Origin: a virus
Lineage: Duplodnaviria; Heunggongvirae; Uroviricota; Caudoviricetes
Reading direction: 5' to 3' (one strand)
Virus record (IMG/VR): IMGVR_UViG_2648501130_000001
Coordinates: 1-14,317 of that record
Length of the DNA: 14,317 bases
The translations under genes were made by a program, and so were the position numbers. The notes under the pieces are model-generated. The model saw only the letters and a list, made by a program, of their open reading frames with translations. It was not told the DNA's origin and searched no databases. Within the stretch, counting starts at the first letter, position 1, and the number at the start of each line of letters is the position of its first letter. Positions 1,143 to 14,317 of the stretch are shown here, one piece after another.

Positions 1143-1432
1143 CGGGAAAAGAAGCAATTATTCATTACCTGGGGACGCATAAGAGCTTCTGTGCGCAGGA
1201 CGTTGCTGCGGTAACAGGCGCAACAGTAACCAGCATAAACCAGGCTGCGGCTAAAATGGCGCGGACAGGAATCTTAGTTATTGATGGTAAGGTCTGGCGA
1301 ACGGTGTATTACCGGTTCGCTACCAGGGAAGAACGGGAAGGAAAGGTGAGCACGAATCTGATTTTCAAGGAGTGTCGCCAGAGTGCCGCGATGAAGCGGG
1401 TGTTGGCATTTTATCGCGGCAATTTTCAATAG
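1139..1432 (+). CDS. ren: Ren protein (lambda ren-like)
   Basis: 97-aa ORF MTGKEAIIHYLGTHKSFCAQDVAAVTGATVTSINQAAAKMAR... matches remembered lambda Ren (96 aa) in size, sequence and position directly after P. Confidence 0.85.
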   Translation: MTGKEAIIHYLGTHKSFCAQDVAAVTGATVTSINQAAAKMARTGILVIDGKVWRTVYYRFATREEREGKVSTNLIFKECRQSAAMKRVLAFYRGNFQ

Positions 1433-1468
1433 ACTATGTACATAAAAATATCATTTTTTAATACATGT

Positions 1469-1675
1469 CTAATTATTGGACGAAATTGGTTTTTGCTTTG
1501 GTTTAGTTAGCCTAGCAATCAAGCCAGAGGCAATAATGATGATCCAAGCAATTTGATGCAATGCTACTCCAATATAAGAACCTTTATAGATAATAAAGGC
1601 ATAGATCGCTAGAAACGAAATAAATATCCATAACGAAAGTTGATAAATTTTGGCGCGCATATTTAATCCAATCAA
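1469..1675 (-). CDS. Small hydrophobic membrane protein (two predicted TM helices), function unknown
   Basis: 68-aa ORF on the minus strand in an AT-rich segment, with two long hydrophobic stretches (LSLWIFISFLAIYAFIIY and IAWIIIIASGLIA) and a basic C-terminus. No recognised family, so coding status is uncertain. Confidence 0.4.
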   Translation of the reverse strand: MIGLNMRAKIYQLSLWIFISFLAIYAFIIYKGSYIGVALHQIAWIIIIASGLIARLTKPKQKPISSNN

Positions 1676-1916
1676 TCAGAAAGACGAGTAATCATAGAGG
1701 TACTATCACCCGGGTAACTATTGCTATTATGAACGGATAGGATAGAGGCTTCAATAACATATGCATCAAGTATGATGGAATATGTAGATGAAAATGACTT
1801 GTGTCAAATTTGTGGAAATGAGTACCATGTTTCTCTGAAATTGATGTCGTTAATGGCTAGTGATAGTGAACTTTTTTACTTTATAATTCCTTTGGTTATA
1901 ACAATAAGGTAAATTT

Positions 1917-2477
1917 ATGAAGAAGATAATATTATTAGCCATGATTATTGGTTCTTTAACAGGTTGCGCTAGTGTGCCACCATTGAATTTTTCAACACCT
2001 AACGTGGGAGTTAGCCAGAAAAAAATAGATGCTGAAATTAAGTCATTAACGGTATCACTTGCTCGTCCAGATGAGCAGAAAGGGGATATCACTGCTGGTA
2101 TGGAGGCTATAACTCCAATTTGGCGTGAATCTTTGCAGGAAGCACTCGACCGAATGACTATTTTTCGTGATAGTTCACCAAATACGGTTAGCTTAAATGT
2201 TAAAGTGTTGGCTCTTGACGTTCCTGCTTTTGGTGTTTCAATGACAACTAAAGCAATTGCAAGGTATGAAATAATCAACCGTGCGAATGGTGATATTATA
2301 TATACGCAGGATATTGAGTCTACCGGTACTGTTCCAGCCAGTTACGCATTCTACGGTATTGTTCGAGCACGCGAATCTGTTAATCGCGCGGTGCAAAACA
2401 ACATAACGCAGTTCTTGCAAGCATTAGAAAGTGTTGATCTTTCTCGTCCAATGTTTCCTGTTAGGGTAGCTAAATGA
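1917..2477 (+). CDS. Lipoprotein of unknown function (cargo gene)
   Basis: 186-aa ORF with a classic signal peptide and lipobox (MKKIILLAMIIGSLTG-C at Cys17). AAGG Shine-Dalgarno about 8 nt upstream. Stop overlaps the next ORF start (ATGA), suggesting an operon. AT-rich, unlike the flanking lambda DNA. Confidence 0.6.
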   Translation: MKKIILLAMIIGSLTGCASVPPLNFSTPNVGVSQKKIDAEIKSLTVSLARPDEQKGDITAGMEAITPIWRESLQEALDRMTIFRDSSPNTVSLNVKVLALDVPAFGVSMTTKAIARYEIINRANGDIIYTQDIESTGTVPASYAFYGIVRARESVNRAVQNNITQFLQALESVDLSRPMFPVRVAK

Positions 2478-4606: not shown

Positions 4607-4984
4607 ATGCGTGATATTCAGATGGTTCTTGAGCGTTGGGGAGCGTGGGCGGCTAATAATCATGAAGATGTGACTTGGTCGTCCATTGCCGCCGGTTTTA
4701 AGGGATTAATTCCTTCAAAAGTAAAATCTCGCCCGCAATGTTGTGACGATGATGCGATGATCATTTGCGGGTGCATGGCCCGTCTGAAAAAGAACAACAG
4801 CGATTTGCATGATTTATTGGTGGACTATTATGTCGGCGGCATGACTTTTATGGCGCTTGCACGTAAGCATGGGCGATCTGATTGTTGGGTTGGCAGGATG
4901 CTTCAGAAAGCTGAGGGCGTAGTGGAGGGTATGCTGATGGTGTTGGATCTCCGATTGGAGATGGATGCTGATTGTTCGAAATAA
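4607..4984 (+). CDS. quuD: Late-gene antiterminator Q (short QuuD-type Q family)
   Basis: The ORF track uses a TTG at 4592; the ATG at 4607 gives [76 protein letters not shown]..., matching my recollection of DLP12 QuuD (about 127 aa). It sits in the canonical Q position after the nin region and before a strong terminator. Confidence 0.8.
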
Positions 4985-5082
4985 TTAAAGGAAAAGTTGC
5001 TGTCTGATTGTCATTAGTCTAACATTTTAAATGTTGGAATCACAACGTAGTTATTATCATATAACAGCTTGTTTCCTGATTT
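4985..5082 (+). promoter_or_regulatory. Putative late promoter (pR'-like) and Q-utilisation region
   Basis: Positional inference only: in lambdoid phages pR' and qut lie directly downstream of Q and upstream of tR'. The AT-rich segment contains -10-like hexamers (tattat/tatcat at 5052-5060) and -35-like ttggaa (5034-5039), but spacing is not canonical and I cannot place the start site. Confidence 0.3.
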
Positions 5083-5111
5083 AGCCAGCCTCCCCAAAGG
5101 CTGGTTTTTTT
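5083..5111 (+). terminator. Rho-independent terminator (tR'-like) downstream of Q
   Basis: GC-rich hairpin: agccagcc (5083-5090), 8-nt loop tccccaaa, ggctggtt (5099-5106; last two pairs G-U/A-U), running into a 7-T tract (5105-5111). Classic intrinsic terminator geometry on the + strand. Confidence 0.65.
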
Positions 5112-5139
5112 CTAATAAGTATTATTTCGGGTAGGGATT

Positions 5140-5664
5140 TTATTGTTTAACCCATAATAATTCATTGACATTGAATCCCAACTTTTGAGCGGTTCGCACA
5201 TAGTCTGCTTTTACTTTATCTGGAATAGTTGGGGTCCTTGCCAGAATCCATAGGTATTCTCTGTTCGGACCACTGACAAGAGCATACTTATACTCATCAT
5301 CCAGTTTGATTACATTATAGCCACCATAGAAGGGGCCAAAAAACGAAACCTTCAATGCTGCAGTTTTAGTATCTCCAGTAAAGTATGCTTTACCTTCGCT
5401 CTCGCTCCATTTATTTTTCGTTGGATCGTATCCACGGTTAAGTACACGAATCCCTCCGTCGTTCCGTTTTCCATAAGTAGCGCTGACCTGTTCCAGACCA
5501 CGTTCGAACCGGTTCTCGAGGCGAGCTATTTCATACCATTTTCCGAGGTAGCGGTTGGCGTCAAAATTTGTAATCGGCTGCACACCTTTAGGTGGTGTCG
5601 GGGCCTTACATGCTATAAGAGTGAAAGAGAGTGCAATGCCAGTCAACACAGGCCATAACTTCAT
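5140..5664 (-). CDS. blc: Outer-membrane lipocalin (Blc family) lipoprotein
   Basis: 174-aa ORF with signal peptide and lipobox (TLIA-C at Cys19) and the lipocalin motif NFDANRYLGKWYEIARLENRFERGLE. Aligns along its length with remembered E. coli Blc but is clearly divergent, i.e. a paralogue rather than the chromosomal blc. Confidence 0.85.
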   Translation of the reverse strand: MKLWPVLTGIALSFTLIACKAPTPPKGVQPITNFDANRYLGKWYEIARLENRFERGLEQVSATYGKRNDGGIRVLNRGYDPTKNKWSESEGKAYFTGDTKTAALKVSFFGPFYGGYNVIKLDDEYKYALVSGPNREYLWILARTPTIPDKVKADYVRTAQKLGFNVNELLWVKQ

Positions 5665-5856
5665 AATAAATCCTGTACTTTTGATAGTTGAGAGTAAGTA
5701 TGAAAGATAGATGATTACGACCGATCACTTAAAGAACTTTCATACTATATTAGGAATAGTCCATAACAGAAAAATTGTCAGTGATGACGCCAGAAAGGCA
5801 ATTTATTCCGTGCACTACACAGTTTATGTGTTAATGAATTAGTCAAGGGGGAGAAT

Positions 5857-6816
5857 ATGATAAAAAAACCTGTGATTGGAATCAGCGGTTGTTTGGCCGG
5901 TTCTGCTGTTCGTTTTGATGGTGGTCACAAAAGAGCTGACTTTTTAATGGACAAATTAGTGGAATGGGTAACATTCAGACCAGTATGTCCGGAAATGGCT
6001 ATAGGGCTGCCAGTTCCGCGTCCTGCTCTACGTCTTGTGCGCTCGATGCAAGGAAATATACGGATGTGTTTCAGCCACGACCAGAATGAGGATGTGACAG
6101 AGAGAATGACAGAGTTTAGTCGTTCTTATATGGACAAATTAAAGGATGTATCGGGGTTTGTGGTTTGTGCTAAATCTCCCAGCTGTGGCATGGAGCGCGT
6201 GCGTGTCTATGATGAAAATGGTAATCGAGGTCGTAAAGATGGAGTGGGACTATTTACGAGCACTTTGATGGAAAAGTTTTCCTGGCTACCGGTTGAAGAG
6301 GATGGGCGATTACATGATCCAGTGCTTCGTGAGAATTTTGTTGAAAGAGTTTTTGCTTTGCATGAGCTCAATCACCTTTACAAGGAGAAATTATCAAGAA
6401 GAGAGTTATTAGCTTTTCATAGTCGTTATAAGCTTCAGTTGTTGGCGCATAGTCAGGCAGGCTATAAAGATATGGGACCATTTGTGGCTGCAATACACGA
6501 GTGGGCGGACCTTGAATCATACTTTGAGGTGTATCGTGATAAGCTGATGGCGATTCTCAGAAAACCTGCATCACGTAAAAATCACACGAATGTGCTGATG
6601 CATATACAGGGGTATTTTAGTAACTACTTAAGTACACGCCAGCGTAAAGAGTTGAGCGAGGTTATACTTAACTATCGTTCTGGCACATTACCTCTTCTTG
6701 CGCCGTTGACTCTGCTGAAGCATTATCTGGGTGAGTATCCTAATGATTACTTGCTTACACAAAATTACTTCGATCCCTATCCGGACGAACTGGCTCTAAG
6801 ACTGATGGTAAATTAA
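5857..6816 (+). CDS. DUF523/DUF1722 two-domain protein (YbgA-like; TudS-type Fe-S domain plus DUF1722)
   Basis: 319-aa ORF. N-terminus (KKPVIGISGCLAGSAVRFDGGHK...RPVCPEMAIGLPVPRP...CAKSPSCGMERV) has the conserved Cys pattern I associate with DUF523/TudS; the C-terminal half resembles the DUF1722 part of E. coli YbgA. GGGGAG Shine-Dalgarno upstream. Confidence 0.8.
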   Translation: MIKKPVIGISGCLAGSAVRFDGGHKRADFLMDKLVEWVTFRPVCPEMAIGLPVPRPALRLVRSMQGNIRMCFSHDQNEDVTERMTEFSRSYMDKLKDVSGFVVCAKSPSCGMERVRVYDENGNRGRKDGVGLFTSTLMEKFSWLPVEEDGRLHDPVLRENFVERVFALHELNHLYKEKLSRRELLAFHSRYKLQLLAHSQAGYKDMGPFVAAIHEWADLESYFEVYRDKLMAILRKPASRKNHTNVLMHIQGYFSNYLSTRQRKELSEVILNYRSGTLPLLAPLTLLKHYLGEYPNDYLLTQNYFDPYPDELALRLMVN

Positions 6817-7310
6817 TTGTATGCGATATCATCCAAAAGGATGAGTTCCTGCATGCAGGATATTTACAATCGTAAAAACTACACTATGATACCCAGAGTG
6901 TCAGTTTGTATAAAAACTCTGTTTACGCTGAAGAAACAATTGAGATGCAACTTAAAGTTGGTAAACATGCCAGTCAAAATATATGATATTATGATTCCAC
7001 GCAGCTATATATAATATAACAGATTGGTTTAATAATTTGTCTTTGTGAGTTAAATACATAATTTTATACTTGTGATGTAATGAAATTTTCCTTATTGTTG
7101 AACTGGCGAATATTGATTTTCCACCTACACTTACCTGGTGTAACCCCAATGATATCAGGTGGATAATATGCCATACATATGTTCTATCATTTTGGTGTTG
7201 AATTCGTTTGATGTCCGAATTGGTAAAGAAGATATTTTGTTTAAAAAAGGAAGTGCTGTTCTCATTGATTACAATTTAAAAGATTTTTTTCATCAAATAT
7301 AGATCATGTA

Positions 7311-7898
7311 ATGATCGTAGATGTTGAAGAAAAAACAGTTAATGATTTCTTTAAAAGCAACACACTCTCACCTTTTTCTGTAAGAAGGTTTTATCCGGCA
7401 TACTTGATGGTGGAATGTGAAGATTTTTCATTGTTAAAGAACTTGATTGCATGCTTGAATTGTGATGGCAGAACTGTGGATTTTGTTAGAAATCAAATAT
7501 CACTTGCATGTCTTGCTATCTTATCTTCAGAGAAAATAGTGCAAAGTTTTTTATTTGGATGTCTTAATAGTTTAGGAAGTAAAGTTAAGGCTATTATTCA
7601 CACGGATATATCTGCAGCATGGAGACTTTGTGATATATCTTCAAGACTGTATCTGAGTGAAAGTCTGTTAAAAAGAAAATTAAAGCACGAAGGCTTATCA
7701 TTTAGTAAGTTAATTCTTGAAGAGCGAATGGTGATGGCGGAAAGGTTATTAAGCTACAATTTATATTCTGTTGGAAAAGTTGCTGAGATATGCGGTTATG
7801 AAAACACGTCATATTTTGTAAGTGTTTTCAGAAGGTATTTTGGTGTTCCTCCCCATCAATATTCATCAAGATTTTTTTTAGAAAAAGACATGATGTAA
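7311..7898 (+). CDS. Short AraC/XylS-family transcriptional regulator (AppY/GadX-like HTH domain)
   Basis: 195-aa ORF with the C-terminal AraC-type double HTH signature (...VGKVAEICGYENTSYFVSVFRRYFGVPPHQY). An in-frame stop at 7266-7268 caps the N-terminus, so the sensing domain is only about 100 aa. Very AT-rich. Confidence 0.7.
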   Translation: MIVDVEEKTVNDFFKSNTLSPFSVRRFYPAYLMVECEDFSLLKNLIACLNCDGRTVDFVRNQISLACLAILSSEKIVQSFLFGCLNSLGSKVKAIIHTDISAAWRLCDISSRLYLSESLLKRKLKHEGLSFSKLILEERMVMAERLLSYNLYSVGKVAEICGYENTSYFVSVFRRYFGVPPHQYSSRFFLEKDMM

Positions 7899-8085
7899 CG
7901 TGATGCGTTTTAATGATTTTGTAATTTTCGTATTTGATAATTGTATGATGCTTTCAGCTACGCCAGAATAATCGCGGCGTTTTTCTTTTTGAATAGATGT
8001 TCAAGCCTTACGCTAATGTAACTTCTATACCTTTCCTCTTCGTTCCGAACCGTGTACACCATCCGTTATTTGCGGAGGTGAGGCT

Positions 8086-8301
8086 ATGAAATCCATGGAT
8101 AAGTTAACAACGGGCATTGCCTACGGCACCTCCGCAGGCAGTGCTGGCTACTGGTTTTTACAGCTGCTCGATAAAGTCACGCCCTCACAGTGGGCAGCAA
8201 TAGGTGTGCTGGGTAGCTTGGTATTTGGCCTGCTGACGTACCTGACAAACCTTTATTTCAAGATTAAAGAAGATAAGCGCAAGGCTGCGAGAGGTGAATA
8301 A
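8086..8301 (+). CDS. essD: Holin (class II / phage 21 S-type, pinholin-like)
   Basis: 71-aa [74 protein letters not shown] with two TM segments and a charged C-terminus. Matches remembered DLP12 EssD / phage 21 S holin; start of the lysis cassette. Confidence 0.85.
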
Positions 8302-9460: not shown

Positions 9461-9753
9461 TTGCCATTACAAAAGCCACTTCCTACAGAGTGGCTTTGAT
9501 AATGGTTTATACCCTACACGGGATAACTTAACTGATATCCCTTTTAAAGGATAAAGGTATTCAAGCCTGACACATCATGCGCTGTATCGTCGCCGTATTC
9601 CCGTATTAACAGAGACCGTAGCCCGACGGGGAACTCCTTCTGCGCGAGTGTGCGGGAATAATCAAAAACGATGCACACCGGGGTTACCGGGTACACATAT
9701 TTCATCATGCCAGCGAGTCCGGTTCTGGCACGGAAGAAACCGGACGTTATGAT

Positions 9754-10164
9754 TTAGTGCGGAAATATTTGTGTAGTGTTCTGAATGTTCTCAGTAAAGA
9801 GTAATGAATTATCAAAGGTATAGTAATACCTTTTGTTTTCGTGGATATTTGTAATCCATCTGAAAACCCCTGCTGTAGCAAGATTTTTCCTGTATTCGTA
9901 AAATGATAACTCTCCTGATTTGAATCCTTTTAAGGTGGCTTCTATAAGGCATTTATTTTTTGAAAATCTTACATTTACAACCTTACCCTGTCCTTTTATT
10001 AAAACCGTATTATCGTTTTCAAGAACAAGATGAATATTCTCTGTAGCTAAATAGTAAATGTAATGTGAGACATTGTGACGTTTTAGTTCAGAATAAAACC
10101 AGTGATAGTTTAAATTATTTCGCACTTTATCGAATATTTGTTTAAAAATGGCAACCTGAGCCAT
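9754..10164 (-). CDS. ybcV: YbcV-family protein (DUF1398)
   Basis: Minus-strand ORF; I prefer the start at 10164 ([45 protein letters not shown]...) because it matches remembered DLP12 YbcV (about 136 aa). The ORF-track start at 10179 adds MEGTT. Confidence 0.75.
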
Positions 10165-10220
10165 TGTAGTACCTTCCATGTGATATGAGGGGCGTAGTCT
10201 GCACGATTATCTAAATTGCT

Positions 10221-10842: not shown

Positions 10843-11403
10843 ATGGAAGTCAACAAAAAGCAGCTGGCTGACATTTTCGGCGCGAGTATCCGTACCATTC
10901 AGAACTGGCAGGAGCAGGGAATGCCCGTTCTGCGGGGTGGTGGGAAGGGTAATGAGGTGCTTTATGATTCTGCCGCCGTCATAAAATGGTATGCCGAAAG
11001 GGATGCTGAAATTGAGAACGAAAAGCTGCGCCGGGAAGTTGAAGAACTGCGGCAGGCCAGCGAGACAGATCTCCAGCCAGGGACTATTGAGTACGAACGC
11101 CATCGACTTACGCGTGCGCAGGCCGACGCACAGGAGCTGAAAAATGCCAGAGACTCCGCTGAAGTGGTGGAAACCGCATTCTGTACTTTCGTGCTGTCGC
11201 GGATCGCAGGTGAAATTGCCAGTATTCTCGACGGGATCCCCCTGTCGGTGCAGCGGCGTTTTCCGGAACTGGAAAACCGACATGTTGATTTCCTGAAACG
11301 GGATATCATCAAAGCCATGAACAAAGCAGCCGCGCTGGATGAACTGATAAAGCGCAGGCGCTCACTATCAACAAGGATGAGGTTAACTCAACAGTTGATT
11401 TAA
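10843..11403 (+). CDS. nohD: Terminase small subunit Nu1, C-terminally truncated at a deletion junction (NohD-like)
   Basis: MEVNKKQLADIFGASIRTIQNWQEQGMPVLRGGGKGNEVLYDSAAVIKWYAERD...KAMNKAAALDELI matches lambda Nu1 up to about residue 169; the final 17 residues (KRRRSLSTRMRLTQQLI) are unrelated, so lambda homology breaks near base 11349. No terminase large subunit gene follows. Confidence 0.85.
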   Translation: MEVNKKQLADIFGASIRTIQNWQEQGMPVLRGGGKGNEVLYDSAAVIKWYAERDAEIENEKLRREVEELRQASETDLQPGTIEYERHRLTRAQADAQELKNARDSAEVVETAFCTFVLSRIAGEIASILDGIPLSVQRRFPELENRHVDFLKRDIIKAMNKAAALDELIKRRRSLSTRMRLTQQLI

Positions 11404-12056
11404 CCCTTACAAAACAATCAGGGACTGGCAATCGTTTTGTTTTACAGAACTCAGGTAATGCAGAACTACCGTTTTCTGTCAGGGTGTGGGGTTCCAGTAC
11501 TCGACAAAACGTTTTTGAGGTTGGAACGTCTGCTGCGTATCTGTTTTATGCGCAAAAAACGTCAGCAGGCCAGTTGTTTGATGTAAATGGCGCTATTAAT
11601 TGCACAACGCTGAATCAGTCATCAGACCGCGACCTTAAAGACGATATTCTCGTTATCAGCGACGCGACGAAAGCAATCCGTAAAATGAACGGGTACACCT
11701 ACACGCTCAAGGAAAACGGAATGCCTTATGCTGGCGTTATTGCACAGGAAGTAATGGAGGCGATACCTGAAGCTGTGGGATCGTTTACTCATTATGGTGA
11801 AGAGTTGCAAGGTCCGACCGTTGACGGCAACGAGCTACGCGAAGAAACTCGCTATCTTAATGTTGACTACTCCGCCGTGACGGGGTTACTTGTTCAGGTC
11901 GCCCGTGAAACAGATGATCGCGTTACCGCGCTGGAAGAGGAAAATACAACGTTACGTGAAAATCTGGCAACAGCAGGCACCCGGATCACCACTCTGGAAA
12001 ATCAGGTAAGCGAACTGGTTGCACTTGTCGGGCAGTTAACAGGAAGCGAACATTGA
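11343..12056 (+). pseudogene. Tail-fibre C-terminal fragment with intramolecular-chaperone (peptidase S74-like) domain; no 5' part or start context
   Basis: Frame 0 is open from the stop at 11340-11342 to the TGA at 12054-12056. The translation contains the autoproteolytic chaperone signature as I recall it (LNQSSDRDLKDDILVISDATKAIRKMNGYTYTLKENGMPYAGVIAQEVMEAIPEAV), preceded by fibre-like sequence. The ORF-track version starts at a GTG (11484). Confidence 0.6.
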
Positions 12057-12239
12057 TATCCTTCAAGCCCTGAAGGAGGCTGTTCCTGGTACGTTCAGAC
12101 TGTTGTTGAGCTGGAAATCGCAACGGAGGAAGAAACCTTGTTGCTGGAAGTCTGGAAGAAGTATCGGGTGTTGCTGAACCGTGTTGATACATCAACTGCA
12201 CCTGATATTGAGTGGCCTACGAACCCTGTCAGGGAGTAA
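12057..12239 (+). pseudogene. Tail-fibre assembly protein (Tfa) 3' fragment, in frame directly after the tail-fibre fragment stop
   Basis: The same reading frame continues after the TGA at 12054-12056 as [60 protein letters not shown], the conserved C-terminus of lambda-type Tfa proteins. No start codon or N-terminal Tfa sequence. Confidence 0.6.
12111..12239 (+). repeat. Direct repeat copy A (about 129 nt, tfa 3' end); partner at 13160-13288
   Basis: ctggaaatcgcaacggaggaagaaaccttgttgctggaagtctggaagaagtatcgggtgttgctgaaccgtgtt... aligns colinearly with 13160-13288, roughly 85-90% identical over the first 105 nt and diverging near the 3' end. Confidence 0.8.
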
Positions 12240-12293
12240 TCATTGGGATTATGCCGCAGCACGTCTTAAGCAAGAGCGAGCTGCGGTTGGATG

Positions 12294-12962: not shown

Positions 12963-13105
12963 GTTATAGTTTTGTTTGTGAATTAAATCAATTATGGTGA
13001 TGAATTACAAGGGGTTAAATGCTGCCGCAGCATAGCGATATTGAAATAGCCTGGTATGCTTCGATACAGCAGGAGCCGAATGGCTGGAAGACCGTCACCA
13101 CATAG

Positions 13106-13288
13106 TTCTACATCCAGGAATTCAGTGAGCATATTGCGCCACTTCAGGATGCTGTAGATCTGGAGATCGCAACGGAGGAAGAAAACTCGTTGCTGGAAGC
13201 CTGGAAGAAGTATCGGGTGTTGCTGAACCGTGTTAATACAACAACTGCACCGGATATTGAATGGCCAACAGTACCCATTATCGAATAG
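13106..13288 (+). pseudogene. Tail-fibre assembly protein (Tfa) C-terminal remnant (tfaX-like)
   Basis: After an in-frame TAG at 13103-13105 the frame reads [60 protein letters not shown] with no Met, a typical Tfa C-terminus. A short upstream ORF (ATG at 13019, 28 aa) may be a further fragment of the same degraded gene. Confidence 0.6.
13160..13288 (+). repeat. Direct repeat copy B (tfa 3' end); partner at 12111-12239
   Basis: See copy A. Same orientation, with the methyltransferase gene between the copies on the opposite strand. Confidence 0.8.
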
Positions 13289-13361: not shown

Positions 13362-14234
13362 TTATTTTGAGTGAATTATCACCTTGTTTTTTCCGGTTCT
13401 TTTGGCTTGATATAACGCTTTATCGGCATTGACTAACATTTCAGATGGGCTGAGATTATTCTCTTTTGAAGTAAAGCAACCAATACTGACAGTTATTTTC
13501 TCAGGTCCATGCGATAATAATTTTTCCGAGCATTGCTCTTCAATGTTTTTTCTGATTCGCTCTGCAATTGATAGCAAGAGCTTTTGAGTATTACCTTTAA
13601 TGATAATACCGAACTCCTCACCGCCTAAGCGCCCTAATACATCCTCTTTCCTGATGGATTTTTTTATTATTCTGGTAACCATTACTATGACTTGATCACC
13701 CATATGATGCCCCCATTTGTCATTGATGCTTTTGAAACTGTCAATATCTAACATTATTACTGAGAAATCATGGTGTTTTGATATATTCTTCAATGAGTCA
13801 ATAAAGTATCTTCTATTGTATGTATTCGTTAGTGGATCATGAATTGCCATATGATTAGCATGATTTAATTTCCTGAAAACATAATACATGAGTGTTGAAA
13901 TGATATAAATCATTGATATCAATTCAAGAAATTTTGTCATATACCATGCAGGATGGGATTTATCAATAAAATACAATAAAATTAGATTATTGCATACTGA
14001 CACTATACTAATAAGTATTATACACAACCATATTTTTGAGTAATTACGTATGCTGATGCATGAGCTGATAAGTAATACAAGCCAAAATACTGATATTATT
14101 TTGGTGTACACGATATTCCACGTCGGCAAATGACGATTCAGCGAGTATTGTATAATATTAAGACTATATTTTATATTGTCACTGCTTAGATTTTTTGCTA
14201 CAAACGGAGTAATAAAAAGAATTAATATTGACAA
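13362..14234 (-). CDS. Membrane-anchored GGDEF-domain diguanylate cyclase (intact GGEEF active site and RxxD I-site)
   Basis: 290-aa minus-strand ORF with an N-terminal half of several hydrophobic helices and a C-terminal GGDEF domain (HDPLTNTYNRRYF...IMLDIDSFKSINDKWGHHMGD...IRKEDVLGRLGGEEFGIII): RKED lies five residues before GGEEF. Strongly AT-rich. The true N-terminus may lie upstream of the annotated Met. Confidence 0.85.
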   Translation of the reverse strand: MSILILFITPFVAKNLSSDNIKYSLNIIQYSLNRHLPTWNIVYTKIISVFWLVLLISSCISIRNYSKIWLCIILISIVSVCNNLILLYFIDKSHPAWYMTKFLELISMIYIISTLMYYVFRKLNHANHMAIHDPLTNTYNRRYFIDSLKNISKHHDFSVIMLDIDSFKSINDKWGHHMGDQVIVMVTRIIKKSIRKEDVLGRLGGEEFGIIIKGNTQKLLLSIAERIRKNIEEQCSEKLLSHGPEKITVSIGCFTSKENNLSPSEMLVNADKALYQAKRTGKNKVIIHSK

Positions 14235-14317
14235 AACAACAATTATTATGTTTCTTTTATCTTCTAAAACACTTTTATTTTTAACATTGGTGGAATAAAC
14301 AGCCAGAAAGATTATAG

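What the first reader, a model, noticed from the sequence alone, without database searches (positions are those of the whole stretch)
6817..7898. Unusually short AraC/XylS regulator preceded by about 500 bp of very AT-rich non-coding DNA
The 195-aa regulator has a full C-terminal AraC HTH domain but only about 100 residues of N-terminal domain, capped by an in-frame stop at 7266-7268. The upstream AT-rich stretch (6817-7310) has no convincing ORF and resembles H-NS-silenced regulatory DNA upstream of horizontally acquired AraC activators such as AppY or GadX. It may control the neighbouring cargo or host genes in trans, or be a decaying remnant.
Basis: partly seen in the sequence, partly recalled or inferred. 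Interest (0 to 1): 0.45.

Follow-up and report, generated by a model that had tools for sequence, protein, structure and literature searches.

The report
Frameshifted prophage AraC-type regulator pseudogene
The "unusually short" regulator is the back four-fifths of an ordinary 243-residue prophage AraC-type regulator gene, broken by loss of one T from a run of eight; this is an ordinary pseudogene, though the same T-run has been hit repeatedly in E. coli.

Summary
The ORF 7311-7898 (195 aa, AraC helix-turn-helix) and the stop at 7266-7268 are real. The ORF is not a short regulator, though. It holds codons 49-243 of a 243-codon gene that starts at ATG 7168. The first 44 codons lie at 7168-7299 in another frame. 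A T8 run present in intact copies is T7 here (7284-7290). RefSeq already annotates 7168-7898 as "frameshifted". Intact copies occur in about 250 complete E. coli genomes and in isolated lambdoid phages. They align end to end with the likely Sakai PatE orthologue (54% identity), PsrA (39%) and GadW, AppY and YdeO (32-34%). A structure model puts four of the six N-domain strands in the lost segment. Truly non-coding upstream DNA is 351 bp, not about 500 bp. It contains a promoter-like block (6863-6890) that is conserved across allele groups. The gene sits between the Q antiterminator and the lysis genes of a defective DLP12-like prophage. T7 occurs on several distinct SNP backgrounds, and each T7 allele outside the window's own lineage has a T8 allele 1-4 SNPs away as its nearest relative (none of those nearest relatives is another T7 allele). 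The run is therefore a recurrent mutational hot spot. It is interrupted in diverged alleles, so it is probably not an evolved switch. The finding is ordinary and of low interest.

The parts
7168..7898 (+). Whole pseudogene: a 243-codon PatE/Psr/GadW-type AraC-family regulator gene carrying a 1-bp deletion
   Evidence: RefSeq/PGAP annotates the identical DNA (L001 8352-9082) as 'helix-turn-helix domain-containing protein, frameshifted'. Intact 732-bp alleles are in L002, L004 and L005.
7168..7302 (+). N-terminal fragment ORF: 44 codons plus TAG. The first 41 codons are the true N-terminus (MPYICSIILVLNSFDV...)
   Evidence: The motif M-x-x-x-C-S-(V/I)-(I/V) is shared with GadW, AppY, YdeO, PsrA and the PatE-like protein. 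Weak NCBIfam YdeO hit to profile positions 1-42.
7284..7290 (+). T7 run, the frameshift site. Intact alleles have T8 here (codons 40-42, GAT TTT TTT TCA)
   Evidence: Alignment A1; run coordinates. Exact 71/72-nt context counts in 5,426 complete E. coli genomes: T7 239, T8 242.
7311..7898 (+). C-terminal fragment ORF (195 codons, equal to residues 49-243 of the intact protein).
   Evidence: No Shine-Dalgarno-like sequence lies before ATG 7311 (sequence).
6817..7167 (+). True intergenic/leader DNA, 351 bp, 32% GC
   Evidence: The small ORFs 6817-7014(+) and 6952-7149(-) have no family match and are broken by indels in diverged alleles. No Rfam match. The leader fold is no more stable than shuffles, z = +0.45.
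6863..6890 (+). Probable sigma-70 promoter of the regulator gene (TTTACA, 16 nt, TATGAT)
   Evidence: Best promoter-like match in 4900-8150, 10 of 12. Both hexamers are unchanged in all allele groups compared, while the flanks vary and the distance to the ATG ranges from 265 to 359 nt. The function is inferred, not shown.
7157..7163 (+). Shine-Dalgarno-like AGGTGGA, ending 4 nt before ATG 7168
   Evidence: Sequence; conserved in all alleles.
4607..4984 (+). Context: Q-family antiterminator, the left border of the cargo slot
   Evidence: L001 5791-6168.
5083..5106 (+). Context: intrinsic-terminator-like hairpin just after Q. Its position matches lambda tR' (inference)
5140..5664 (-). Context: lipocalin (Blc-like) cargo gene
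   Evidence: phrog_2809.
5857..6816 (+). Context: YbgA-family cargo gene (2-thiouracil desulfurase domain plus DUF1722)
8086..8301 (+). Context: holin essD, start of the lysis cassette and right border of the cargo slot

Best explanation
The locus is a cargo ('moron') gene of a defective DLP12-like lambdoid prophage. It lies in the variable slot between the Q antiterminator and the lysis cassette, together with a lipocalin gene and a YbgA-family gene. In its intact form it encodes a 243-residue AraC-family activator of the PatE/Psr/GadW/AppY/YdeO type. That protein has a beta-rich N-terminal domain, a C-terminal double helix-turn-helix, probably its own promoter at 6863-6890, and a leader of about 270 nt. 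In this window one T has been lost from a T8 run in codons 40-42. Translation from ATG 7168 therefore stops at TAG 7300-7302 after 44 codons. The remaining 195 codons form a separate ORF with no ribosome-binding site. The copy is most likely a non-functional pseudogene. The T8 run is a slippage hot spot that has contracted independently on several haplotypes. Shown: the frameshift, the intact relatives, the family relationship and the recurrence. Inferred: loss of function, the promoter, and the guess that the intact protein activates acid-resistance genes such as gadE and hdeA, as PatE, PsrB and AppY do.
For: Frameshift: alignment A1 shows T7 in the window against T8 in intact alleles, with no other indel. 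PGAP labels the identical DNA 'frameshifted'. Intact 243-aa proteins are found in E. coli PK8277, TUM13867, phage IdasGreatGrand and Lambda_2G7a-type phages.

The upstream ORF is the real N-terminus: it aligns from residue 1 with GadW (34%), AppY (32%), YdeO (32%), PsrA (39%) and the PatE-like Sakai protein ECs_0287 (54%), and end to end with phrog_1450.

Intact alleles are under purifying selection, with dN/dS about 0.2.

Loss of function is likely. The AlphaFold model (mean pLDDT 76) puts strands at residues 3-10, 14-18, 21-25 and 29-34, all upstream of residue 49. Full-length fold matches are to Rns, CsvR and ToxT. Further decay is seen in the same lineage: T6 plus a nonsense codon in PC-NDM34, and an IS1 insertion in 9 genomes.

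The allele is not a sequencing error. The exact 195-aa product is on at least 1,000 contigs from several sources, and the exact T7 context is in 239 complete genomes.

Recurrence: all four combinations of A/G7331 with T7/T8 are populated, at roughly 214, 50, 25 and 192 genomes. The A7272/C7309 haplotype has no T8 copy, while its near relative S43 has T8. In 57 aligned alleles every T7 allele outside the window's own lineage has a T8 allele 1-4 SNPs away as a nearest relative, never a closer T7 allele (L011 ties at 3 SNPs with L010, which shares its haplotype). Parsimony gives a T8 root and 8-9 changes.

Context: searches show the Q-to-lysis slot holds other cargo in other prophages (nmpC in K-12 DLP12) and that psrA lies directly downstream of Q in Sakai Sp4.
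Against: No expression or protein data exist for this locus. The stop of the 44-codon ORF (7300-7302) lies 8 nt before ATG 7311, so termination-reinitiation could yield some 195-aa protein, and N-terminally shortened AraC-type proteins can be active (VirF21, PMC5101355). The trees behind the parsimony count rest on few SNPs. Some singleton T7 calls may be homopolymer errors in long-read or old assemblies (L020 and L024 carry other 1-bp gaps). The target genes of the intact protein are inferred from paralogues that are only 32-54% identical.
Confidence: 0.85

Rival explanations
1. The 195-aa ORF is itself a working, naturally short AraC-type regulator. It would be made from ATG 7311 by reinitiation or from an internal promoter, and would act in trans or as a negative form like Shigella VirF21.
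For: The C-terminal DNA-binding domain is complete. The ORF is uninterrupted and the upstream stop is only 8 nt from its ATG. VirF21, an N-terminally shortened AraC-like protein, is functional (PMC5101355).
Against: The same DNA with one more T gives a 243-aa protein typical of the family. There is no Shine-Dalgarno sequence before 7311. The ORF keeps only 2 of the 6 strands of the N-terminal domain in the model. The same lineage accumulates a second deletion, a nonsense codon and an IS1 insertion, as expected for a gene no longer under selection. In IMG/VR contigs the intact form outnumbers it 51 to 5.
Confidence: 0.06
2. The T-run is a reversible ON/OFF switch (contingency locus), or full-length protein is still made from the T7 allele by transcriptional slippage, as for the AraC-family activator MxiE of Shigella.
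For: Both run lengths are common and occur on the same SNP backgrounds, implying repeated length changes. MxiE is likewise split into two frames joined at a T-run and is restored by RNA-polymerase slippage (PMC7762205).
Against: The run is not conserved. The 90% and 86% alleles read GATCTTTTTTC and GTTTTCTTTTC, so T8 is a recent accident of one allele group. The parsimony root state is T8 and every inferred change is a loss of T (T7, then T6); no clear reversion was seen. Isolated phages carry the in-frame form. From my own knowledge, not tested here: known programmed slippage sites use runs of about 8-9 or more, and 7 is short.
Confidence: 0.08
3. The missing T is an assembly or sequencing error in a homopolymer, and the gene is really intact.
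For: Homopolymer indels are a common error type. Some single T7 contigs carry other 1-bp gaps.
Against: The window sequence is 100% identical across 6817-7950 to at least 30 independent complete genomes among the 489 that are 99% identical or better. The exact 195-aa product occurs on at least 1,000 contigs from NCBI, JGI, ENA and Logan short-read assemblies. The exact T7 context occurs in 239 complete genomes.
Confidence: 0.01

Closest known systems
PatE (Z0321, EHEC prophage CP-933H/OI-8). Compared here through Sakai Sp1 ECs_0287, its likely orthologue
   Same: Prophage-borne, about 245 aa, same N-terminal motif and AraC double HTH. 54% identity over 235 residues to the intact allele. PatE activates gadE/hdeA acid-resistance genes (PMC10877973).
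   Different: Only 54% identical. PatE sits at the prophage end and not in the Q-to-lysis slot. The window copy is frameshifted. That ECs_0287 equals PatE is my inference from prophage correspondence. Targets were not tested.
PsrA/PsrB (EHEC prophage-encoded secretion regulators)
   Same: AraC-like and found on lambdoid prophages. psrA (ECs_1087) lies directly downstream of the Q antiterminator in Sp4, the same slot as here. 39% identity end to end using the full 237-codon ORF.
   Different: Lower identity. The psr genes are associated with effector and pch genes, whereas here the neighbours are lipocalin and ybgA-like genes. The window copy is a pseudogene.
GadW, AppY, YdeO (E. coli K-12 AraC-family regulators of gadE)
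   Same: Same length class (242-253 aa) and colinear from residue 1, at 32-34% identity. AppY is also DLP12-borne and its expression depends on H-NS among other regulators (PMC10057817).
   Different: Far below the NCBIfam equivalog cut-offs (YdeO 105 bits against 348; GadX 86 against 500), so it is a paralogue and not an orthologue.
Rns / CsvR / ToxT (structurally solved AraC-family virulence activators)
   Same: Best full-length fold matches (Foldseek E about 1e-12) and sequence matches. Two-domain layout with a beta-rich N-terminal domain.
   Different: 17-19% identity. TM-score is only about 0.43 because the domain orientation differs in the model. No evidence here for fatty-acid binding.
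MxiE (Shigella), with frame restored by transcriptional slippage at a T-run
   Same: An AraC-family gene split into a short N-terminal frame and a long C-terminal frame joined at a run of T (PMC7762205).
   Different: In MxiE the split arrangement is the normal state. Here the in-frame T8 form is ancestral and common, the run is only 7 nt, and it is absent from diverged alleles.

Membership tests
AraC/XylS family | C-terminal DNA-binding domain of about 100 residues with two helix-turn-helix motifs | tested here: met
   Pfam HTH_18 55.6 bits (cut-off 33.6) and HTH_AraC 45.1 bits (cut-off 26.6) at residues 110-186 of the 195-aa ORF. GadX DNA-binding domain 3mkl: 40% identity, rmsd 1.3-1.6 A.
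PatE/Psr/GadW/AppY/YdeO-type subgroup | About 240-250 aa, colinear from residue 1, with the N-terminal motif M-x-x-x-C-S-(V/I)-(I/V) | tested here: met
   Met for the intact allele: end-to-end BLASTP alignments at 32-54% identity.
PatE/Psr/GadW/AppY/YdeO-type subgroup | One uninterrupted reading frame in this window | tested here: not met
   T7 in place of T8 at 7284-7290. The frame changes after codon 41 and stops at 7300-7302. PGAP labels it 'frameshifted'.
PatE/Psr/GadW/AppY/YdeO-type subgroup | Activation of gadE/hdeA acid-resistance promoters | not testable with these tools
   Known for PatE, PsrB and AppY (PMC10877973, PMC10057817). No data for this protein.
YdeO or GadX orthologue (NCBIfam equivalogs NF007407, NF007432) | Score at or above the curated cut-off | tested here: not met
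   YdeO 105.2 bits against 348; GadX 85.9 against 500.
Phase-variable contingency gene | Homopolymer in the coding region, with ON and OFF lengths recurring on the same backgrounds | tested here: met
   T8, T7 and T6 are all seen. The four-gamete pattern with site 7331 is populated. Parsimony needs 8-9 changes.
Phase-variable contingency gene | Tract maintained across orthologous alleles | tested here: not met
   The tract is interrupted by C in the 90% and 86% allele groups and in Lambda_2G7a.
Phase-variable contingency gene | Measurable switching within a clone, in both directions | not testable with these tools
   Needs deep sequencing of cultures. Only contractions are inferred from the trees.
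Programmed transcriptional slippage (MxiE-like) | The split-frame arrangement is the conserved state of the gene | tested here: not met
   In-frame T8 is found in 242 of 534 complete genomes carrying this allele group, in 51 of 56 IMG/VR contigs, and in isolated phages.
H-NS-silenced xenogeneic DNA | AT-rich relative to the host | tested here: met
   31.8% GC over 6817-7898, against 43.7% for the window and about 50% for the neighbouring lysis genes.
H-NS-silenced xenogeneic DNA | H-NS occupancy and de-repression in an hns mutant | not testable with these tools
   No ChIP or expression data for this locus.

The most novel reading that the evidence does not exclude
The T8/T7 run is a heritable, possibly reversible, on/off switch for a prophage-borne PatE/Psr-like acid-resistance or virulence regulator. 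Alternatively, the T7 allele still yields a little full-length protein through RNA-polymerase slippage, as in Shigella MxiE. Under either version the widespread 'pseudogene' in this E. coli lineage would be a tuned-down regulator and not a dead gene.
Probability: 0.08. Interest if true: 0.5.

Novelty: already known. Interest (0 to 1): 0.15.

Why it matters
It matters mainly as a correction. Gene callers that report the 195-aa ORF as an 'AraC family transcriptional regulator' (623 sequences in one 90%-identity cluster; the exact window product alone is on at least 1,000 contigs) are describing a fragment. Anyone inferring regulatory cargo for this prophage in this E. coli lineage would be misled. 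A smaller point is that an uncharacterised relative of PatE/Psr is carried with lipocalin and ybgA-like genes in the slot where Stx phages carry stx, including on isolated phages. That relative is repeatedly knocked out at one fragile T-run, which suggests it is dispensable or costly once the prophage is resident.

Tried and rejected
1. Structured or known RNA in the AT-rich leader: Rfam found nothing in 6700-8100 at the gathering threshold or at E up to 1. The leader fold is no more stable than shuffles, z = +0.45.

2. Small ORFs 6817-7014(+) and 6952-7149(-): no PHROG match, and they are broken by indels in diverged alleles. Rejected as genes.

3. Sequencing error: rejected on the basis.

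4. Sakai psrA is annotated at the same length of 195 aa, which briefly suggested a genuinely short family. The ORF in fact extends in frame to 237 codons with the family N-terminus, so that is probably a mis-set start.

5. The primary PatE and PsrB papers (PMC3416394, PMC4288888) are not held, so the review PMC10877973 was used.

6. Literature searches found no paper characterising this protein.

7. The Fitch parsimony line was a coding bug in which all states were collapsed. It was corrected.

8. Searches failed because my coordinates for the upstream ORF were off by one. They were redone.

Full report
**The observation.** The window is part of a lambdoid prophage of E. coli. The region 6817-7950 is 100% identical to at least 30 of the complete E. 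coli chromosomes listed (489 are 99% identical or better), and 1,081 of 5,426 complete genomes hold something at least 80% identical. The ORF 7311-7898 exists and encodes 195 aa. It has a complete AraC-type double helix-turn-helix (Pfam HTH_18, 55.6 bits; HTH_AraC, 45.1 bits). The in-frame TGA at 7266-7268 is there. The DNA is AT-rich: 32.2% GC for 6817-7167 and 31.6% for 7168-7898, against 43.7% for the window. So the low GC is a property of the whole 6817-7950 block, gene included, and not only of the upstream DNA.

A third frame holds a 44-codon ORF at 7168-7302, MPYICSIILVLNSFDVRIGKEDILFKKGSAVLIDYNLKDFFHQI*. It is preceded by AGGTGGA at 7157-7163. RefSeq's annotation of identical DNA in strain WCHEC020031 calls 7168-7898 one gene, 'helix-turn-helix domain-containing protein, frameshifted'.
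- Near-identical copies in E. coli PK8277 and in the isolated phage IdasGreatGrand are intact at 243 codons. So are the 86%-identical alleles in TUM13867 and in Lambda_2G7a-type phages. A 90%-identical allele has 237 codons.
- A DNA alignment shows a single difference in length: T8 in the intact copies and T7 in the window, at 7284-7290.
- The intact protein reads ...YNLKDFFSSNIDHVMIVDV.... The window gives ...YNLKDFFHQI* in one frame and ...FFSSNIDHV-MIVDV... in the other.
- The 195-aa ORF is therefore residues 49-243 of a 243-residue protein.

**The upstream ORF is the real N-terminus.** The intact protein aligns from residue 1 to about residue 235 with GadW (34%), AppY (32%) and YdeO (32%) of K-12. 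It does the same with the full 237-codon PsrA ORF of O157 Sakai (39%) and with Sakai Sp1 protein ECs_0287 (54%). ECs_0287 is the only AraC-type gene of the prophage that corresponds to CP-933H/OI-8, where PatE is encoded (PMC10877973); the equivalence is my inference. All share the start M-x-x-x-C-S-(V/I)-(I/V). The protein also matches phage family phrog_1450 end to end. Intact allele groups differ with dN/dS about 0.2, so the intact gene is maintained by selection. It falls far below the NCBIfam cut-offs for YdeO and GadX, so it is a paralogue and not an orthologue.

**Consequence of the frameshift.** An AlphaFold2 model built on 16 homologues (mean pLDDT 76; about 80 over the first 60 residues) has strands at 3-10, 14-18, 21-25, 29-34, 48-54 and 79-83, followed by helices. 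Its full-length fold matches are Rns, CsvR and ToxT.
- The 195-aa ORF would keep only two of the six strands of the N-terminal domain.
- ATG 7311 has no Shine-Dalgarno-like sequence.
- Within the window's own haplotype, further damage has accumulated. Strain PC-NDM34 has T6 and an AAG-to-TAG change at 7707. Nine genomes have an IS1 insertion near 7848.
- I conclude the copy is most likely dead. This is an inference, because no expression data exist. The TAG of the short ORF lies only 8 nt before ATG 7311, so some reinitiation cannot be excluded. A shortened AraC-like protein, VirF21, is known to be active (PMC5101355).

**Not an artefact, and recurrent.** The exact 195-aa product is recorded on at least 1,000 contigs from NCBI, JGI, ENA and Logan, as is the exact 243-aa product.
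- Among 534 complete genomes with this allele group, 239 have the exact 71-nt context with T7 and 242 the exact 72-nt context with T8.
- With the SNP at 7331, all four combinations are well populated. A+T8 has 50 genomes and G+T7 has 25. By subtraction, A+T7 has about 214 and G+T8 about 192.
- A haplotype with A7272/C7309 (in at most about 51 genomes) never occurs with T8. Its close relative S43, which shares A7239, C7309, A7835 and a deletion at 7882, has T8.
- In IMG/VR, T7 occurs on 5 viral contigs and T8 on 51. The T7 contigs are shorter, with a median of 12.4 kb against 25 kb (one-sided Mann-Whitney p = 0.004, n = 5).
- In 57 aligned full-length alleles (44 T8, 12 T7, 1 T6), every T7 allele outside the window's own lineage (window/L001/L023, L022, L009) has a T8 allele 1-4 SNPs away as a nearest relative and no closer T7 allele; L011 ties at 3 SNPs with L010, which shares its haplotype. 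Parsimony on NJ and UPGMA trees gives a T8 root and 8-9 changes.
- Caveats: the trees rest on few SNPs, recombination is possible, and a few singleton T7 calls may be homopolymer errors.
- Even so, at least three well-populated independent T7 backgrounds remain, so the T8 run is a mutational hot spot.
- It is not conserved. The 90% allele reads GATCTTTTTTC and the 86% allele reads GTTTTCTTTTC. This argues against an evolved switch and for a fragile sequence that arose recently in one allele group.

**The upstream DNA.** The non-coding stretch is 6817-7167 (351 bp).
- Its best promoter-like site, TTTACA-16 nt-TATGAT at 6863-6890, scores 10 of 12. It lies in a block whose hexamers are unchanged in all allele groups, while the flanks diverge and indels move the ATG between 265 and 359 nt away. 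I take this as the gene's own promoter with a long AT-rich leader. That is an inference.
- No Rfam family matches, and the leader is not unusually structured.
- The two small ORFs there have no family match and are not conserved.
- H-NS binding is plausible for DNA of this composition, and appY expression depends on H-NS among other regulators (PMC10057817). It could not be tested here.

**Context.** The gene order is replication genes, ren, ybcN, ninE, ybcO, rusA, ylcG, Q, then lipocalin(-), ybgA-like and the AraC-type gene, followed by essD, rrrD, Rz, ybcV-like, ylcI-like, nohD and tail-fibre fragments. This is the DLP12 layout. K-12 DLP12 carries nmpC in the same Q-to-holin slot.
- A terminator-like hairpin follows Q at 5083-5106, in the position of lambda tR'.
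- The three-gene cargo cassette is present, with an intact regulator, on isolated phages. psrA of Sakai Sp4 also lies directly after Q.
- During lytic growth the gene would therefore be read with the late operon. In lysogens it would be read from its own promoter. This is an inference by analogy with stx and other morons.

**Comparison and verdict.** The finding is a frameshifted copy of an uncharacterised member of the known prophage-borne PatE/Psr/GadW/AppY/YdeO group of AraC regulators. Public annotation already flags the pseudogene. The recurrent contraction of the T-run is a small new observation. The most novel reading not excluded is a reversible switch or MxiE-like slippage (PMC7762205), which I rate at about 8%. 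Interest is low.

Noticed in passing
L018:13678-14391 (E. coli O157:H7 Sakai, Sp4): psrA (ECs_1087) is annotated as 195 aa from ATG 13804, but the ORF runs in frame from ATG 13678 (237 aa) with the family N-terminal motif MVVVCSVIMV. The RefSeq start is probably set too far downstream. psrA lies directly after the Q antiterminator and before the ileZ-argN-argO tRNA genes.
   Followed up: partly
window about 7848 (L017:1059-1756): Nine complete genomes otherwise identical to the window carry an IS1 inserted in the 3' part of the already frameshifted gene.
   Followed up: partly
window 7284-7290 and 7707 (L009, strain PC-NDM34): One genome of the window's haplotype has lost a second T (T6) and has AAG-to-TAG at 7707. 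This is further decay of the pseudogene.
   Followed up: yes
window 7872-7879 and 7882: A second T8 run lies six codons before the stop. Some alleles have T7872C, which breaks it, and some have a 1-bp deletion in the following A-run, which gives 241-aa variants with a changed C-terminal tail.
   Followed up: partly
window 13042-13245 (+): Rfam match to IS009 (RF02111), 129.9 bits against a gathering score of 117. It is the only Rfam hit in the window.
   Followed up: no
window 10843-12240: The prophage is defective. nohD (small terminase) is followed directly by tail-fibre and tail-fibre-assembly fragments, so the whole head and tail morphogenesis region is missing. The flanking chromosome includes a diguanylate cyclase gene and ybhB.
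   Followed up: partly
window 5140-6816; L005, L019: The cargo cassette of lipocalin(-), a YbgA-family gene (2-thiouracil desulfurase domain plus DUF1722) and the AraC-type gene is conserved between Q and the holin on isolated temperate phages (IdasGreatGrand, Lambda_2G7a group). K-12 DLP12 holds nmpC in the same slot. In some strains IS elements disrupt the ybgA-like gene (L002, L007).
   Followed up: partly
L020-L075 (IMG/VR contigs): Viral contigs with the T7 allele are shorter than those with T8 (median 12.4 kb against 25 kb, one-sided Mann-Whitney p = 0.004, n = 5 against 51). This fits the idea that the frameshift sits mostly in degraded prophages, but contig length also reflects assembly quality.
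   Followed up: partly
window 1350-2100, 9750-10200, 13650-14250: Other AT-rich stretches (27-35% GC) occur in the window, one over the DUF1398 (ybcV-like) gene and one over the diguanylate cyclase gene at the right end.
   Followed up: no
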